This document shows, piece after piece, positions 1 to 6,125 of a stretch of 6,125 nt of DNA. The notes below the pieces were generated by a model. It was given only the letters and a program-made list of their open reading frames with translations, was not told the origin of the DNA and searched no databases. This DNA comes from a virus. Taxonomy: Duplodnaviria; Heunggongvirae; Uroviricota; Caudoviricetes. The stretch spans positions 1 through 6,125 of IMG/VR virus record IMGVR_UViG_2695420564_000002. One strand, 5' to 3'. Position numbers and translations under genes: made by a program. Every line of letters begins with the position of its first letter. The first letter of the stretch is position 1.

Positions 1-22
1 GGCAGCGGCAACCAGCGGCTGC

Positions 23-258
23 TGATATTCGCCAGATTATTGTCCAGTTGTTCGCGCACATCAGGACGAATACAAGAAATATGAATATGGAAATGGTTTT
101 GCGTACGCCCGGTTCGGGAGTTTATCGCCAGTGCTGCCTTCAATGCTTTGTGCGCCAACACGTGAAGCGGTCAGCGAGTGGTTGTACCGCCATCATGAGG
201 TTCCGGCAAACGACGATGAAACGCAGGCGCTCTTGCGTCGGGCGATTCGTTATAATCG
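23..258 (+). other. Coding-like open frame fragment of unknown identity, not in the frame of the downstream ydgH-like gene
   Basis: Frame 2 is open from the TGA at 20-22 through 258 and translates to protein-like text (…[56 protein letters not shown]). The frame that is clean downstream (48..734 in the ORF track) gives an Arg/Cys-rich, non-DUF1471-like translation here. N at 259, 263 and 266 separate this segment from the ydgH-like sequence. I do not recognise the protein. Confidence 0.25.
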
Positions 259-266
259 NGATNGAN

Positions 267-734
267 GCTAACCAGGGCGGCAACCAGCGCATTACTGCAT
301 TCATCTACAAACAAGATGCCAGGAAACGCGTAGTACAAAGCCCGGATGTGATCCCGGCTGATTCCGAAGCCGGACGTGCGGCACTGGCTGCCGGCGGCGA
401 AGCAGCGAAGAAAGTTGAAATCCCAGGCGTAGCTACCACCGCATCACCAAGTTCTGAAGTCGGTCGCTTCTTTGAAACCCAGTCATCAAAAGGTGGGCGT
501 TACACTGTCACGCTACCTGATGGCACGAAAATTGAAGAGCTGAACAAAGCGACTGCGGCAATGATGGTGCCGTTTGACAGCATTAAGTTCTCAGGAAACT
601 ACGGCAACATGACCGAAGTTTCCTACCAGGTTGCTAAACGTGCCGCGAAGAAAGGCGCTAAGTATTACCATATTACCCGCCAGTGGCAGGAACGCGGCAA
701 TAATATGACCATCAGCGCCGACCTGTATAAATAA
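267..734 (+). CDS. ydgH: 3' portion of a DUF1471 (YdgH/BhsA/McbA-type) periplasmic protein gene; 5' end not recoverable in this window
   Basis: Translation from 267 reads ANQGGNQRITAFIYK…PFDSIKFSGNYGNMTEVSYQVAKRAAKKGAKYYHITRQWQERGNNMTISADLYK, with the repeated '…KKGA.YY.I…GN…ADLYK' signature of DUF1471 repeats. Stop TAA at 732-734. Symbol assigned from family resemblance plus its position directly upstream of a ydgI-like gene, as in E. coli. The part upstream of the N cluster does not continue this protein in any frame. Confidence 0.7.
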   Translation, partial: ANQGGNQRITAFIYKQDARKRVVQSPDVIPADSEAGRAALAAGGEAAKKVEIPGVATTASPSSEVGRFFETQSSKGGRYTVTLPDGTKIEELNKATAAMMVPFDSIKFSGNYGNMTEVSYQVAKRAAKKGAKYYHITRQWQERGNNMTISADLYK

Positions 735-919: not shown

Positions 920-1345
920 ATGGAAAAGAAACTGGGACTGAGCGCACTCACCGCGCTGGTATTAAGCTCAATGCTTGGCGCAGGAGTTTTCAGTCTGCCA
1001 CAAAATATGGCGGCAGTTGCCAGCCCGGCAGCATTGCTCATCGGTTGGGGCATCACAGGCGCAGGCATTTTATTACTGGCCTTCGCGATGCTGATTCTTA
1101 CGCGCATTCGTCCCGACCTTGACGGAGGTATCTTTACCTACGCCCGTGAAGGTTTTGGCGAGCTAATCGGCTTCTGCTCCGCGTGGGGATACTGGCTGTG
1201 CGCGGTTATCGCCAACGTTTCCTATCTGGTGATCGTCTTTTCCGCATTAAGTTTCTTCACCGATACACCAGAACTACGCCTGTTTGGCGATGGCAATACC
1301 TGGCAATCGATCGTCGGCGCATCAGCATTATTGTGGATTGTTCAC
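920..1345 (+). CDS. ydgI: 5' part (about 142 codons) of an APC-superfamily amino-acid/polyamine antiporter (arginine:ornithine-antiporter-like); truncated at the N cluster
   Basis: ATG at 920 gives MEKKLGLSALTALVLSSMLGAGVFSLPQNMAAVASPAALLIGWGITGAGILLLAFAMLILTRIRPDLDGGIFTYAREGFGELIGFCSAWGYWLCAVIANVSYLVIVF…ALLWIVH, which I recognise as the N-terminus of E. coli YdgI with the typical first transmembrane helices of APC transporters. The ORF-track start at 872 adds an implausible 16-aa leader. The last unambiguous codon ends at 1345; after the N at 1346-1356 the frame runs into minus-strand phage sequence and stops at 1405. Confidence 0.8.
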
Positions 1346-1357
1346 NNNTTGATNCNG

Positions 1358-2623
1358 CGAAGGATTGATGGAAAGGCAAGCATTAGGAAAGGCAACCGGC
1401 CATGAGTCATCAACAACGACCATATTACCGTCGGTAGATTGCGGCACTGATACCATCTTCCACTGAAGCAGTGCTGTTCGTTGTACTCCACCAATTAATA
1501 CTGGAATAGTGATGTTACCTGCACTGCTGGCCAATGCTGTTGCAGCAGGCATTTTTGCCGCTTCTCCCAAACCAAGGTATGTGAGAAGACCAGCTACATC
1601 CTTTCCACTCAAATTAGTCAGCGTATTGTCCAGCGGTTGTTTACCTGCCAGTGCATTAAGCATTGTCGTGGCAAAGTTCGGGTCATTCCCCAGCGCCGCC
1701 GCCAGTTCGTTCAGTGTATCCAGTGCCGCAGGTGCAGAACCCACCATTGCCGCAATCGCCGATTTCACAAAAGCCGTAGTGGCAATCTGTGTATTGTTGA
1801 CCGACTGCGCCGCCGTGGGGGCTGTTGGCGTTCCGGTGAGTGCCGGACTCGACAGTGGCGCTTTCAGTGCCAGCGCATTGTTAATGGTGGTACTGAATTT
1901 CGGATCATTGTTAATGGCTACGGCTATTTCTTTCAGCGTGTCCAGCGTGGCTGGAGCACCATTAATAAGAGCCGTCAGTGCCGCCTGAACAAACGCGGTG
2001 GTCGCAACCTGCGTGGTGTTATTCCCCGCCGCTGGCGTTGGCGCTTTGGGGGTTCCGGTAAACGTCGGACTTTCTTTGGGTGCATACTGTGAATGCGGGT
2101 CCGGTGCGGCAAGATGTTTTGCCATCAGGTCATCCACGTACACCTTCAGCTCCAGTGCCTTGTCATCCACATACTTGCGGGTTGCCAGCACTACGGCAGG
2201 GTCGATTTTCAGTGTGATATTGTCCGTGCTGCTGGTAATCAACACCATACGCACGGTCTGGGTACGCCCGCTGCCTTCAGCCAGTTGCGGCTTATAGCTT
2301 TCCGGGCAGTTGCCCACGGCAATCAATGCCCCGGACTCATCAAACAGGCCCACTTCACGTATCCACCAACCGCCCTCGTTTTCAGGGATCACCTGTTCAG
2401 CAATAATCTGGCTGCTGTTCTGCGGGTCGATATAGAGCATATTCAGCGCAGCCCGGCGTTTCTCATTTACTAATGCTGTCTGCTTTGCGTTCGGCGTTGG
2501 CAATGTTCCGCCGCCATCGCCGACCGCCATATGGGTAATTTTTAAAGGCACACCGAGCGCGGCGGCGCTGGCAAGTTTCTCCGCGCCAATATCCGTCAGC
2601 AGGGTATAAAATTTTGTGCTCAT
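1358..2623 (-). CDS. H: P2-like tail fibre protein (gpH family), N-terminal about 420 aa only; distal receptor-binding part missing
   Basis: Minus-strand ATG at 2623-2621 overlaps the stop of the upstream I gene (ATGA). N-terminus MSTKFYTLLTDIGAEKLASAAALGVPLKITHMAVGDGGG… and the …ESYKPQLAEGSGRTQTVRMVLITSS… block match the conserved N-terminal domain of P2 gpH as I remember it. Two tandem 74-aa repeats follow. The frame runs into the N cluster at 1346-1356 and ends on a stop inside ydgI antisense sequence, so the natural C-terminus is absent. Confidence 0.8.
1648..2059 (-). repeat. Two diverged tandem repeats of about 222 bp (74 aa) inside the tail-fibre gene
   Basis: Protein repeats TGTPKAPTPAAGNNTTQVATTAFVQAALTALINGAPATLDTLKEIAVAINNDPKFSTTINNALALKAP… and TGTPTAPTAAQSVNNTQIATTAFVKSAIAAMVGSAPAALDTLNELAAALGNDPNFATTMLNALAGKQP…. 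On the plus strand both units end in …GGCGTTCCGGT / …GGGGTTCCGGT (about 1837 and 2059) and begin GCCAGTGCATTAAG / GCCAGCGCATTGTTAATGG (about 1648 and 1869). Coordinates are approximate. Confidence 0.7.
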
Positions 2624-3225
2624 GGATTCACTCTCATTGTGTCAATAACATGGACCGCCCCGCCTTCATGCGCGGTGCCGCCAGAAATAATTGTTTCGTT
2701 GATATACGGATAGATCGTGATTTCTTCGCCAAGATAGCTGGCGGCTCCCACCCAATGCGGGCCGCTGGTCTGCAGGTTGATGGACATGCCGATCATGTGA
2801 CGGCTACATGGTTTGGCATCGCTTATCAGTCGCTCAAGTTCCAGATAGGTATCTTCAGTGATGCCCTGGTCCTGCACGCCGATATCCAGGCGAAACGTGC
2901 CCGGTGTCTCTCCGGTCTGCCACCACTCAATAATGCGGATCAGAAAGCCGAACGGCTCCACCACCCGCCGCACGGCACTGGTGGTCCCTTTATGCTGATG
3001 AATATAAAAAGCATCCTTCACCACCTGGCGCTTGACGCTTTCTGTCCAGCCCTCGTCCCAGCGATCCACAGAGAACGCCCAGGCGAGATAAGGCAGGAAA
3101 CTGACCGGACAGGTTGCCGGATTCCACAAGTCACGCAGCGGCACCTGCAGATCAGTAATCCCGCTGCAGGTTTGCGCCAGTCGGCGCTCCAGTGAAGTTG
3201 AACCCGGTGGCAGCAGACTATTCAT
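2620..3225 (-). CDS. I: P2-like baseplate protein gpI
   Basis: 201-aa ORF starting MNSLLPPGSTSLERRLAQ…LWNPATCPVSFLPYLAWAFSVDRWDEGW…GTFRLDIGV…, closely resembling P2 gpI as I recall it. Strong Shine-Dalgarno GGAGGA 4-5 nt upstream of the ATG at 3225-3223. Its stop overlaps the H start (ATGA at 2620-2623). Confidence 0.85.
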   Translation of the reverse strand: MNSLLPPGSTSLERRLAQTCSGITDLQVPLRDLWNPATCPVSFLPYLAWAFSVDRWDEGWTESVKRQVVKDAFYIHQHKGTTSAVRRVVEPFGFLIRIIEWWQTGETPGTFRLDIGVQDQGITEDTYLELERLISDAKPCSRHMIGMSINLQTSGPHWVGAASYLGEEITIYPYINETIISGGTAHEGGAVHVIDTMRVNP

Positions 3226-4126
3226 CCGTTCCTCCGTTGGTTACGTGCCACTGCGTACATGATGCCGCCTGTGTTTTGTTCAGGACCACATCCGCCAGAG
3301 GAGAAGCCAGCTCCACACGCTGCACACCCTCAACATGCAGGGCGGCAAAGATGGCGCTACGGCGAATATCCCGACCAAGACGCGTCTGACTGGCGATGTA
3401 CTTCTGCAGGCTGACTTTTGCCGCTGCCATTACCGGCTCTGCTTCCGGTCCCGGATAAAGAAAAATGGTGGCTTCCACTCGGTACGGGATGATTTCTGCG
3501 CTGCGAACCGTCAGACGGTTAGCCACCGGGCGGACGTTCTCACTGTTCAGGGCGTTCTCCACCACATCCAGCAAGTCTTTTTCTGCTGTTCCGTCGCCTT
3601 CGCGGCTAAGGACAGTCAGCACCACCTCTGCAGGTGCCGGACTGGTTGCACTGGCATCCGCCACCCGACCGTCGGCGCTTCGTGCATGAAACTCATAAGC
3701 GGCAGTTGGCCCCGCAACAGAAAGCCCTTCAAAGGCTGCAGGCACACGCAGGCGTAATGCTTCATCACTTTCCATCACAGCCGCAACGGGCGGTACAGCG
3801 TCATCATCAGCAGGTGTCACCGTCAGGCGTTTCACGTTGTAGTTAGCAGCGAGCTGGTCAAGATCGCCGCCCATCGCGTAAGCCACCATCACCGCCTGCG
3901 CGGCTTCGTTAATGCGCTGGCGCAGAAGCAACTCACGATAAGCGTTCTCCTGCAACAATTTGGTAACAGGTTCAGATTCCAGTTCCAGCGTGCGGATCAC
4001 AGCTTCCTGCTCATCTTTCGGATGAAGCGCCACAAATTCTGCCTTGCGTTCGGCAAGCAGCGTCTCAAAGTCCGGCACATCCACAATCTGCGGCGCAGGC
4101 AACTGCGAAAGGTCAATCACTGCCAT
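3218..4126 (-). CDS. J: P2-like baseplate wedge protein gpJ
   Basis: The ORF track starts at 4165, but an internal ATG at 4126-4124 is preceded by GGAG with a 6-nt spacer and gives about 302 aa beginning MAVIDLSQLPAPQIVDVPDFETLLAERKAEF…, matching the length and N-terminus of P2 gpJ. Stop TAG at 3220-3218 overlaps the I start by 8 nt. Confidence 0.85.
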   Translation of the reverse strand: MAVIDLSQLPAPQIVDVPDFETLLAERKAEFVALHPKDEQEAVIRTLELESEPVTKLLQENAYRELLLRQRINEAAQAVMVAYAMGGDLDQLAANYNVKRLTVTPADDDAVPPVAAVMESDEALRLRVPAAFEGLSVAGPTAAYEFHARSADGRVADASATSPAPAEVVLTVLSREGDGTAEKDLLDVVENALNSENVRPVANRLTVRSAEIIPYRVEATIFLYPGPEAEPVMAAAKVSLQKYIASQTRLGRDIRRSAIFAALHVEGVQRVELASPLADVVLNKTQAASCTQWHVTNGGTDE

Positions 4127-4472
4127 TCTCTGCTCCTGTTGATACGGAAAGGGAAACAGGCACACCGTTATTACGCCGCCCGGTCAGCGCCACCACCATT
4201 GAACCGTCAAAATGGCTGTTGATGGTGATGGAATCCAGCGTCAGCCGTGGCTCCCAGCGACTCAGCGCCACATACACTGCCGACATGACCTGCAGGCGTA
4301 ACGCCGGATTTTGTGGCTGGTCTATCAGTGCCGACAGCAGGGAACCATATTCACGGCGAGCAATGCGGCTACCCTGCGGCGTCAGCAGAATGTCCCGCAC
4401 CGACTGGCGCAGATGGTCAATATCAGTAATGGCTTTACCGCTGGTATTGTTCATCCCGCTATAAAGCGTCAT
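4113..4472 (-). CDS. W: P2-like baseplate protein gpW (gp25/GPW family)
   Basis: 119-aa ORF MTLYSGMNNTSGKAITDIDHLRQSVRDILLTPQGSRIARREYGSLLSALIDQPQNPALRLQ…, with the GPW/gp25 signature and the size of P2 gpW. GGAGG lies about 7 nt upstream of the ATG at 4472-4470. The start overlaps the V stop (ATGA) and the 3' end overlaps the J start by 14 nt. Confidence 0.85.
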   Translation of the reverse strand: MTLYSGMNNTSGKAITDIDHLRQSVRDILLTPQGSRIARREYGSLLSALIDQPQNPALRLQVMSAVYVALSRWEPRLTLDSITINSHFDGSMVVALTGRRNNGVPVSLSVSTGAENGSD

Positions 4473-5047
4473 ACCGGGCCTCCAGTTGTGTCGCCGCCTT
4501 TCAGGACGCCAGTATGCTGATGCGCATCAACCTCGATCCCGTTAGAACTCATCGCTCCGCCGCCCTGGGTAACGCCACCATTGATCACCACTTCGCTGTT
4601 AATGCGCGTGCGGTCAGCCTCCAGTACAAACTCACTGGTTTTCATGGTGATGTTGTCAGCGGCCTCAATGACCATTGATTTGATGCCCCTGACATACCAG
4701 CGCCCGGTGGCGGGTTCGTATTCAAACCAGCTACCGTCAGGATGTTCTGTCACGCAGGCGTCCGCCGACGTCGACGGTGGTGCGAACTGATTCGAATAGA
4801 CAGCGGGCAGCGCAAAGGCGGTCTCCAGATTGCCGCCCAGACTCAGCAGCACCACCTGCTCACCTTCCGATGGTTTCCACCATGTCCGGGCATTACCCGC
4901 GCGCAGCGTCAGCCAGTTAATCCAGTTGGTTTCAAGGTCGCCCGTTTTCACCCGGCAAAGCCAGTTTTCCCGGTCCACTTCGGTGACTACACCTATGCGG
5001 ATCAGATTGGTGATAAGGCGCATGATTTCGGTTAGTTGTGCGTTCAT
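4469..5047 (-). CDS. V: P2-like baseplate spike protein gpV
   Basis: Start placed at the ATG at 5047-5045 (MNAQLTEIMRLITNLIRIGVVTEVDRENWLCRVKTGDL…WWKPSEGEQVV…HQHTGVLKGGDTTGGPV), which aligns with the N-terminus of P2 gpV. The 81 codons the ORF track adds upstream (to 5290) are antisense to the AT-rich block and are not phage-like. No Shine-Dalgarno precedes this ATG, consistent with loss of the normally coupled upstream gene S. Confidence 0.8.
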   Translation of the reverse strand: MNAQLTEIMRLITNLIRIGVVTEVDRENWLCRVKTGDLETNWINWLTLRAGNARTWWKPSEGEQVVLLSLGGNLETAFALPAVYSNQFAPPSTSADACVTEHPDGSWFEYEPATGRWYVRGIKSMVIEAADNITMKTSEFVLEADRTRINSEVVINGGVTQGGGAMSSNGIEVDAHQHTGVLKGGDTTGGPV

Positions 5048-5085
5048 AGATATATGATGACAGCTGAAAACTTGTTTATAACTTC

Positions 5086-5113
5086 TTGCAAATTGTGGTA
5101 TCGATGGTACAAA
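5086..5113 (+). promoter_or_regulatory. Candidate sigma70 promoter with extended -10 for the AT-rich ORF
   Basis: TTGCAA (5086-5091), 16-nt spacer, then TGgTACAAA (TG at 5105-5106, hexamer 5108-5113), about 40 nt upstream of the ATG at 5151. AGGTGG at 5140-5145 is the ribosome-binding site, 5 nt before the start. Pattern match by eye only. Confidence 0.35.
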
Positions 5114-5150
5114 TTGATAAAAGGATAAAAAACAACCAATAGGTGGATAA

Positions 5151-5957
5151 ATGAGTGTTATGAATCCAATAAGTTCTAATATATTTAATGCTGAATTTTT
5201 AAACACCCCGGCAGCGGCACTTGCCGCATGGATTTCCATTATTGGAGCTGTTATAACTTTGGTGACGATAGTTATAAGAGCACTATTCAAATATAGAAAA
5301 TCTCATGATGTAATTTTGAAAAAATCAGGAATACCTGCGTTTATATTAAATTTTTTTCTTATACGAATATCATTAAAAAGGCTGCCTACTATCACATGGG
5401 CTGAAAAATCAATCACGGTTCTCTTTTCACTTCTTTTTTTGTATGCAATTTATATTTTTGGTCCAGTTTTCATCCAAGCCATTAGAACCCCACCAAATAG
5501 CACATTGCTTTATTGGATAAAGTCCGGTGAATCATTTTATATGTCAAAAAAACTGGCGACTGCAGCTACAATATTAACCACTCCTGATTGGGAAATATCA
5601 AAGGATGATTGCGAAGAGTCATCCTCTGCCAGTACAGAGAAGTACAAATCATTAACTATCGAACATAAAGAAATTCTTTGTAAACTACTAACCACTGATG
5701 AAGGGAATGCTTACATTGATGAAGAAGTCAAGAATTTCGTTAAAGACAAATTCTTTATCTATTCCTTTGCCCCAACAACCATATTTATTCTATTATGGAT
5801 TTCTTTGGGTTTTATACTGACCATTCACTATTCTAAAAAAGTTAGGAAATATATTCTGACTGAACAAAAAAATGCAATTCATTGGGCATATGGTGAATTC
5901 AAGACAGAAGGAATCTATTCAATATATCAAGAGTTAGAACGTAAGACTCACCATTAA
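5151..5957 (+). CDS. Hypothetical 268-aa multi-pass membrane protein, AT-rich, no family recognised; candidate phage moron (accessory or defence-type gene)
   Basis: ATG at 5151 with a strong SD, stop TAA at 5955-5957. Hydrophobic stretches at about aa 21-46 ([26 protein letters not shown]), 60-75, 87-111 ([25 protein letters not shown]) and 206-227 ([21 protein letters not shown]). Basic loops (KYRKSH, KRLP, SKKVRKY) fit the positive-inside rule. An acidic soluble region of about 95 aa sits between helices 3 and 4. Two hand-counted 60-nt lines give about 28% G+C against about 60% in the adjacent tail genes. Opposite strand to the tail operon. Confidence 0.7.
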
Positions 5958-5984
5958 GACCCAACAAACGACGCTCTGCGTAAC

Positions 5985-6125
5985 GCACTTCCGCCACGAA
6001 GGAAGACTCCAGCACGCCAGCACGATGACCGCCAGTTGCGGCCGCCCACGCTTTAGCGATCGCCATTCCTTCGCCTTTCGGATCGTTTTCCGGGTGAACG
6101 GCAATCAGCGTCGGTACACCGAATC
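5985..6125 (-). CDS. ilvC: Internal fragment of ketol-acid reductoisomerase (no start, no stop; runs off the window edge)
   Basis: Minus-strand translation [45 protein letters not shown] matches an internal block of E. coli IlvC as I recall it (…[55 protein letters not shown]…). Similarity stops after …VAEV at plus position 5985. The 27 nt at 5958-5984 are unassigned and the frame reads on without a stop into the AT-rich ORF, so the end is not a natural gene end. Confidence 0.65.

What the first reader, a model, noticed from the sequence alone, without database searches (positions are those of the whole stretch)
1337..1365. Truncated antiporter gene meets truncated tail-fibre gene tail-to-tail exactly at a cluster of N bases
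Seen in sequence: the ydgI-like frame reads …ALLWIVH up to 1345, then N at 1346-1348, 1354 and 1356. From about 1358 the minus strand encodes the tail-fibre region (…DDSWPVAFPNACLSINPS). Neither gene has its natural end: the antiporter lacks roughly two-thirds of its length and the fibre lacks its distal domain. Ambiguous codons 1349-1360 (ttg atn cng cga) could still encode the …FLILR… I recall following IVH in YdgI, so the breakpoint may lie a few bases right of the N's. Inference: a deletion or insertion breakpoint, or a read-end join.
Basis: partly seen in the sequence, partly recalled or inferred. Interest (0 to 1): 0.5.

Follow-up and report, generated by a model that had tools for sequence, protein, structure and literature searches.

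The report
Chimeric contig join, not a rearrangement
The place where a cut-off transporter gene meets a cut-off phage tail-fibre gene at a cluster of N bases is almost certainly a false join made during assembly of a poor draft Escherichia albertii genome, so it is an artefact and not biology.

Summary
ydgI stops after codon 142 of 460. Ns lie at 1346-1348, 1354 and 1356. From 1357 the minus strand encodes a P2-like tail fibre (H) that lacks only its last 45 of 467 residues.

The join is not biological. The window is the complete 6125-bp contig CCBU01000400.1 of draft assembly GCA_000940615.1. It is a patchwork of five unlinked pieces: cdh, yegD, ydgH-ydgI, a P2-like prophage block, and ilvC.

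All five Ns fall on the columns where the true ydgI continuation (TTTTTGATTCTGCG) and the true phage sequence (GAATTGA-CCAGCG) disagree. A rule of "N at a mismatch, base at a gap" rebuilds window 1300-1400 exactly. Only 0.25% of random N placements can be rebuilt this way. The second N cluster (259/263/266) marks the yegD|ydgH join and fits the same pattern.

A sister contig, CDRK01000234.1, is 100% identical over window 1357-6125. It runs straight through the site with a full-length H gene. The E. albertii type strain has an intact ydgI.

Interest is very low.

The parts
1..131 (-). Internal fragment of cdh (CDP-diacylglycerol diphosphatase). It is joined bluntly to the next piece at 131/132.
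   Evidence: 93.9% identical to E. coli cdh. The gene is on the minus strand of the matching locus, whose neighbours are tpiA and sbp. Junction panel.
132..267 (+). Internal fragment of yegD (chaperone). Its last bases, 259-267, are blended with the start of the ydgH piece.
   Evidence: 99.2% identical to yegD of E. coli ET5, where the neighbour is alkA. Panel.
259..267 (.). Junction B, the yegD|ydgH overlap zone, with Ns at 259, 263 and 266.
   Evidence: yegD CGA-AGAAG against ydgH A(A/G)ATCGATG. All three Ns lie on columns where the two parents differ. Column 260 needs a synonymous CAA>CAG difference in E. albertii, which I could not check.
260..734 (+). 3' half of ydgH (YdgH/BhsA-like, about 156 of 314 codons).
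   Evidence: Positions 302-1345 are 99.6% identical to E. albertii NBRC 107761.
920..1359 (+). 5' third of ydgI (amino-acid permease, the putative arginine:ornithine antiporter). Codons 1-142 are unambiguous and ydgI-compatible bases run to 1359.
1346..1359 (.). Junction C, the finding itself: a 14-column blend of the ydgI continuation and the phage H sequence. Ns fall at the five mismatch columns and the ydgI base is kept at the one gap column.
   Evidence: panel; the merge model TTTTTGATTCTGCG x GAATTGA-CCAGCG gives NNNTTGATNCNGCG and reproduces window 1300-1400 exactly; 17 of 6930 random N placements can be reproduced.
1357..2623 (-). P2-like tail-fibre gene H, codons 1-422 of 467. Bases 1357-1552 lie inside the invertible (variable) segment.
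1553..1587 (.). Right arm of the tail-fibre invertible segment, holding the Din-type crossover site TTCTCCCAAACCAAGGTATGTGAGAA.
   Evidence: A 35-nt inverted repeat in the sister contig, L009 1077-1111 / 2451-2485. A resolvase-family invertase gene lies next to it in L009 and its relatives.
2620..5047 (-). P2-like baseplate genes: I (2620-3225), J (3218-4129), W (4113-4472) and V (4469-5047).
5151..5957 (+). DUF6216 gene, an AT-rich cargo gene (33-35% GC) between V and S of the prophage.
5899..5993 (-). 3' remnant of phage gene S (virion morphogenesis), cut off at the next junction.
5986..5993 (.). Junction D, phage S|ilvC. The two parents share 8 identical bases (CACTTCCG), so no N was needed.
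   Evidence: The same junction and the same contig end occur in the sister contig.
5986..6125 (-). 140-bp internal fragment of ilvC (ketol-acid reductoisomerase), running to the contig end.

Best explanation
The ydgI|H join is a technical chimera in a low-quality draft assembly and not a genomic breakpoint. The window is a whole contig in which five unrelated pieces of an Escherichia albertii genome were strung together. The pieces are two read-sized scraps of cdh and yegD, a 1.1-kb ydgH-ydgI piece, a 4.6-kb prophage piece, and a read-sized scrap of ilvC. Where the ends of two pieces were overlapped, the software aligned a few terminal bases. It wrote the shared base where they agreed, N where they conflicted, and the existing base opposite a gap. 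That produced NNNTTGATNCNGCG at 1346-1359 and NGATNGANG at 259-267. It produced no N at 5986-5993, where 8 bases happen to be identical. What is shown: the mosaic structure, the coincidence of Ns with conflict columns, and intact versions of both genes elsewhere. What is inferred: which program or step made the joins (scaffold/contig merging, or consensus re-calling after read mapping), and whether a physical library chimera seeded them.
For: (1) Source: the window equals the whole of CCBU01000400.1 (6125 bp) of GCA_000940615.1, at least the 400th contig of a fragmented draft. (2) Mosaic: 1-131 is cdh, 132-261 is yegD, 261-1345 is ydgH-ydgI, 1357-5993 is a P2-like prophage, and 5986-6125 is ilvC. 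In the reference genomes these genes have quite different neighbours: tpiA/sbp, alkA, pntA/folM and ppiC/ilvY. That gives four junctions and seven truncated genes in 6.1 kb. (3) At junction C all five Ns are columns where E. albertii ydgI and the phage sequence differ, and every called base in 1346-1359 fits both parents once one gap is allowed. An explicit overlap-merge model reproduces window 1300-1400 exactly. Only 17 of 6930 random placements of five Ns in the same 11-base span can be reproduced by any such model. (4) The same behaviour appears at junction B, where 3 of 3 Ns lie on yegD/ydgH conflict columns. It also appears in the sister assembly's contig, where 4 of 4 Ns lie on bioF/sheath conflict columns. 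In total 12 of 12 Ns lie on conflict columns at chimeric joins. (5) The sister contig CDRK01000234.1 is 100% identical to window 1357-6125 and continues leftwards through the site as normal phage: full-length H (467 aa), tail-fibre assembly genes, invertase and sheath. (6) E. albertii NBRC 107761 has an intact 460-aa ydgI that is 99.6% identical in DNA to the window piece. (7) In a collection of 153 billion gene positions, the chimeric 431-aa H product occurs only on this contig. The chimeric S/ilvC product occurs only on this contig and its sister.
Against: No reads are available, so the absence of spanning reads is not shown directly. The phage|ilvC junction is shared by two separately deposited assemblies, which could be read as independent confirmation of that one junction. 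However, both contigs also stop at the identical ilvC base 140 bp later, which points to the same data or the same deterministic artefact. Junction B fits the merge rule only if E. albertii ydgH has G at window position 260 (E. coli has A). In the sister contig one conflict column (L009 position 71) was called as a base and not as N, so the rule is not perfectly uniform. The ungapped register at junction C would predict nine Ns, so the exact fit depends on allowing one gap.
Confidence: 0.93

Rival explanations
1. A real illegitimate-recombination breakpoint. A decaying P2-like prophage remnant has been fused to ydgI by deletion or rearrangement, and the Ns are merely poor base calls at the junction.
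For: P2-like prophage remnants with internal deletions exist in E. coli: BL21 and MFDS1001074 carry truncated tail genes. Short imperfect similarity exists at the site, with TCAC and GCG shared in the ungapped register.
Against: A clonal real junction has defined bases. Here the Ns coincide exactly with the columns where the two uninterrupted parents differ. The same contig has three more junctions to unlinked loci (cdh, yegD, ilvC), two of them delimiting read-sized scraps. An identical phage copy with an intact H gene exists in the sister assembly. No other assembly carries the chimeric product.
Confidence: 0.03
2. The Ns are scaffold-gap placeholders between two contigs that are truly adjacent (linked by read pairs), so the two genes are real neighbours with a small unsequenced gap.
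For: Ns in draft assemblies often mark gaps. Both N clusters sit at piece boundaries.
Against: The Ns are interleaved with called bases (TTGAT, C, GCG) that match both parents in register, which a gap filler would not produce. A gap of a few bases cannot hold the missing 318 codons of ydgI and 45 codons of H. The adjacency contradicts synteny in E. albertii and E. coli and the sister contig.
Confidence: 0.02
3. Recombination by the prophage's Din-family invertase at a secondary (quasi) crossover site inside the invertible tail-fibre segment joined H to chromosomal DNA.
For: The junction lies inside the invertible segment. A resolvase-family invertase and 35-nt inverted repeats are present in the intact phage.
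Against: The junction is 194-207 bp away from the crossover site at 1553-1587. The sequence at 1340-1365 in either parent has no AAACC..GGTTT-type dyad like the crossover site. This idea also does not explain the Ns or the other three junctions.
Confidence: 0.01

Closest known systems
Chimeric contig (misjoin / 'relocation' misassembly) in a draft short-read assembly, with consensus conflicts written as N
   Same: It joins loci that are megabases apart in every reference. Read-sized scraps are attached to the contig ends. Ambiguous bases are confined to a few columns at the joins and coincide with parent disagreements. The same region is assembled correctly in another assembly.
   Different: Nothing essential differs. 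The program that made the joins is not identified.
P2-like prophage tail-fibre module with a Din-type invertible segment (as in Mu G, P1 C and e14 P segments)
   Same: The gene order is V-W-J-I-H. The 3' end of H lies in a segment flanked by 35-nt inverted repeats. Alternative fibre ends plus tail-fibre assembly genes and a resolvase-family invertase are present in the intact copies.
   Different: This module is genuine but has nothing to do with the N-cluster join, which lies about 200 bp inside the segment and not at a crossover site.
Cryptic or deleted P2-like prophage remnants in E. coli (for example the E. coli B/BL21 remnant next to ybjL)
   Same: The baseplate and fibre genes are 97% identical, and real internal deletions are annotated there as partial genes.
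   Different: Those remnants have defined junction sequences, sit at a constant chromosomal site, and recur in many independent genomes. The window's junctions are unique to one or two drafts and carry conflict Ns.

Membership tests
Assembly chimera (misjoined contig) | The joined sequences are not adjacent in closely related complete genomes. | tested here: met
   ydgI is followed by folM in E. coli, and ydgI is intact in E. albertii NBRC 107761. H is followed by tail-fibre assembly genes in every intact phage copy.
Assembly chimera (misjoined contig) | The same sequence is assembled without the join elsewhere. | tested here: met
   Sister contig CDRK01000234.1 is 100% identical over 4769 bases and runs through the site with a full-length H gene.
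Assembly chimera (misjoined contig) | Ambiguous bases at the join reflect a conflict between two superimposed sequences. | tested here: met
   12 of 12 Ns at three joins lie on parent-mismatch columns. The window is reproduced exactly by a merge model. Only 0.25% of random N placements can be reproduced.
Assembly chimera (misjoined contig) | There are multiple independent misjoins or read-sized fragments in the same contig. | tested here: met
   Four junctions and pieces of 131, about 130 and 140 bp.
Assembly chimera (misjoined contig) | No reads or read pairs span the junction at normal depth. | not testable with these tools
Real microhomology-mediated deletion/rearrangement junction | A defined junction sequence with a short perfect microhomology, recurring in independent assemblies of the lineage. 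| tested here: not met
   The junction is a 14-column blend with 5 Ns and one gap, with only 8 of 14 columns matching. The chimeric product is found on this contig only.
Din-invertase (Gin/Cin/Pin/Hin family) site-specific recombination product | The breakpoint lies at a 26-bp crossover site or quasi-site. | tested here: not met
   The crossover site is at 1553-1587 and the junction is at 1346-1359. There is no similar dyad at the junction in either parent.
Prophage attachment junction (attL/attR of a P2-like phage) | The junction lies at the phage att core next to the integrase, with phage genes intact. | tested here: not met
   The junction cuts H at codon 422, and the other phage end cuts S. 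No integrase or att region is present in the window.

The most novel reading that the evidence does not exclude
The strain, or a subpopulation of it, really carries a scrambled region. A P2-like prophage fragment would be fused on one side to ydgI and on the other to ilvC by illegitimate recombination, and the Ns would reflect a mixture of rearranged and wild-type cells in the sequenced culture.
Probability: 0.03. Interest if true: 0.2.

Novelty: not a real feature. Interest (0 to 1): 0.03.

Why it matters
It matters only as quality control. Contig CCBU01000400.1, and its sister CDRK01000234.1 (which has entered IMG/VR as a viral contig), contain false joins. These create fake truncated genes (ydgI, H, S, ilvC, ydgH, yegD, cdh, bioF) and fake phage-host junctions. 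Such joins could be misread as prophage integration sites, pseudogenes or gene fusions. A practical rule follows: a tight cluster of isolated Ns interleaved with called bases at a change of synteny is a signature of two superimposed contig ends.

Tried and rejected
(1) Looked for the window's own contig. It is absent from IMG/VR, from JGI metagenomes and from the GTDB representative genomes, where only the intact E. albertii ydgI was found. It was finally found by exact protein look-up.
(2) Literature search for the accession numbers found no paper.
(3) Exact cluster look-up of the three chimeric products found nothing in the protein collection.
(4) Considered Din-invertase recombination. Rejected because the junction is about 200 bp from the crossover site.
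(5) Considered ligation of restriction fragments (GATC sites). GATC lies near two junctions in one parent (ydgH about 260-263, phage 1340-1343), but not at the joins and not at the other two junctions. Rejected.
(6) Tested an ungapped superposition at junction C. It predicts 9 Ns, not 5. The one-gap alignment fits exactly.
(7) Could not obtain E. albertii ydgH bases for window 257-301, because locus L006 ends at window position 302. One column of junction B (260) therefore stays unverified.
(8) The first Pfam call failed on a frame error and was repeated.

Full report
**Observation.** The window has eight non-ACGT bases, at 259, 263, 266, 1346-1348, 1354 and 1356.

- The + strand ORF from 920 encodes 142 residues ending ...ALLWIVH at base 1345. 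This is an amino-acid permease N-terminus (Pfam AA_permease_2). It is identical to the first 142 of the 460 residues of YdgI in Escherichia albertii NBRC 107761, which continues HFLILRG.
- From 2623 down to 1357 the - strand encodes 422 residues of a P2-like tail fibre ending ...DDSWPVAFPNACLSINPS.
- The description is therefore correct: two convergent, truncated genes meet at the N cluster.
- One correction: the fibre lacks only its last 45 of 467 residues, not a whole distal domain.

**What the window is.** The window is the reverse complement of an entire contig, CCBU01000400.1 (6125 bp), of NCBI assembly GCA_000940615.1. BLAST against 5,426 complete E. coli genomes shows a patchwork.

| Window | Content | Best match |
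|---|---|---|
| 1-131 | cdh | 94% to E. coli |
| 132-261 | yegD | 99% to one strain (ET5) |
| 261-1345 | 3' half of ydgH plus 5' third of ydgI | 90% to E. coli; 99.6% to the E. albertii type strain over 302-1345 |
| 1357-5993 | P2-like prophage block H-I-J-W-V-DUF6216-S' | 99.8% to a prophage of strain GPEC1405 from 1553 on; 100% to MFDS1001074 for 1357-1600 |
| 5986-6125 | ilvC | 93% to E. coli |

In the reference genomes these genes have unrelated neighbours: tpiA/sbp, alkA, pntA/folM and ppiC/ilvY. The finding is thus one of four junctions in 6.1 kb. Three of the five pieces are only 130-140 bp long.

**What the Ns are.** I lined the window up with the two uninterrupted parents, E. albertii ydgI (L006) and the intact phage (L003/L009).

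- ydgI continues CAC TTTTTGATTCTGCG CGG.
- The phage reads CACA GAATTGACCAGCG AAGG.
- With one gap (GAATTGA-CCAGCG), the 14 columns 1346-1359 have eight agreements (TTGA, C, GCG), five disagreements and one gap.
- The window shows the agreed base at every agreement, N at every disagreement, and the ydgI base at the gap.
- An explicit enumeration of overlap-merge models (N at a mismatch, base opposite a gap) reproduces window 1300-1400 exactly.
- If five Ns are dropped at random into the same 11-base span of any clean ydgI/phage junction, only 17 of 6930 cases (0.25%) can be produced by any such model.

The same pattern recurs at other joins.

- At the yegD|ydgH join, Ns 259, 263 and 266 are all parent-conflict columns: yegD CGA-AGAAG against ydgH A(A/G)ATCGATG. 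Column 260 needs a synonymous difference from E. coli that I could not verify.
- At the phage|ilvC join the parents share 8 identical bases (CACTTCCG), so no N appears.
- In the sister assembly's contig, Ns at 69, 70, 73 and 74 lie on bioF/sheath conflict columns.
- In total, twelve of twelve Ns sit on conflict columns at chimeric joins.

A clonal, real junction would have defined bases. Ns that record the disagreement between two sequences which never meet in nature are a signature of computation.

**Intact versions exist.** The IMG/VR contig IMGVR_UViG_2695420687_000004 is the same sequence as CDRK01000234.1 of GCA_000936005.1.

- It is 100% identical to window 1357-6125 and ends at the same base.
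- To the left of the site it simply continues as phage...GTAGATCACAGAATTGACCAGCGAAGG....
- It encodes the full 467-aa H protein, tail-fibre assembly genes, a 1.3-kb invertible segment flanked by 35-nt inverted repeats, a resolvase-family invertase and the end of the sheath gene.
- ydgI is intact in the E. albertii type strain.
- In a collection of 153 billion gene positions, the chimeric H product exists only on this contig. The chimeric S/ilvC product exists only on this contig and its sister.

**Mechanism.** The best explanation (confidence about 0.93) is that a scaffolding, contig-merging or consensus step joined unrelated contig ends and single reads.

- Where it overlapped the ends, it wrote conflicts as N.
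- The specific program is unknown, and a physical library chimera may have seeded a join. These steps are inferred.
- The shared phage|ilvC join in two deposited assemblies is not independent support. Both contigs stop at the identical ilvC base 140 bp later, which a single-copy gene gives no reason for. That points to common data or a deterministic artefact.

**Rivals.**

- A real illegitimate-recombination breakpoint with poor base calls (about 0.03) does not explain the coincidence of Ns with conflict columns, the other junctions or the intact sister copy.
- Ns as gap placeholders between truly adjacent contigs (about 0.02) fails for two reasons. The Ns are interleaved with in-register bases, and a gap of a few bases cannot hold the 318 + 45 missing codons.
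- Din-invertase recombination at a quasi-site (about 0.01) fails because the junction is about 200 bp from the crossover site at 1553-1587 and has no similar dyad.

**Genuine features in the window.**

- The window carries a normal P2-like baseplate and tail-fibre module.
- The 3' end of H lies in a Din-type invertible segment. This is why the best genome match starts at 1553: strain GPEC1405 has the segment in the other orientation.
- An AT-rich DUF6216 cargo gene (33-35% GC) lies between V and S.
- All of these are ordinary and widely shared.

**Verdict.** The feature is an assembly artefact, so novelty is "not a real feature" and interest is about 0.03. Its only use is as a quality flag for these two database records.

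Noticed in passing
It marks a join between an internal yegD fragment and the middle of ydgH, and shows the same 'N at parent conflict' pattern.
   Followed up: yes
window 131/132: A blunt join, with no Ns and no shared bases, between a 131-bp cdh fragment and a roughly 130-bp yegD fragment. Both are read-sized scraps.
   Followed up: partly
window 5986-5993; L009 6884-6891: Phage gene S is cut and joined to an internal part of ilvC through 8 shared bases (CACTTCCG). The identical join and the identical contig end 140 bp later occur in a second deposited assembly (CDRK01000234.1), which has entered IMG/VR as a 'viral' contig with bioF and ilvC scraps on its ends.
   Followed up: partly
window 1553-1587; L009 1077-1111 and 2451-2485: A Din-type invertible tail-fibre segment. 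It has 35-nt inverted repeats containing TTCTCCCAAACCAAGGTATGTGAGAA, 1339 nt apart, next to a resolvase-family invertase. Relatives carry the segment in either orientation: GPEC1405 is inverted relative to this contig.
   Followed up: partly
window 5151-5957 (+): An AT-rich (33-35% GC) DUF6216 gene lies between baseplate gene V and gene S. It encodes a predicted membrane protein, and its 3' end overlaps the 3' end of S. The exact protein is indexed in 747 blocks of the public assembly collection. From memory, this position corresponds to the orf30 cargo hot spot of P2. Its function is unknown.
   Followed up: no
window 132-261: The yegD fragment is 99.2% identical to only one 'E. coli' genome (strain ET5, from sediment). 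The adjoining E. albertii-type pieces are about 90% identical to all E. coli. This may reflect interspecies recombination at yegD in ET5, or an unusual allele.
   Followed up: no
L009 69-74: The sister contig has its own N cluster (69, 70, 73, 74) at a bioF|tail-sheath join. One conflict column (71) was called as a base and not as N, so the N rule is not perfectly uniform.
   Followed up: yes
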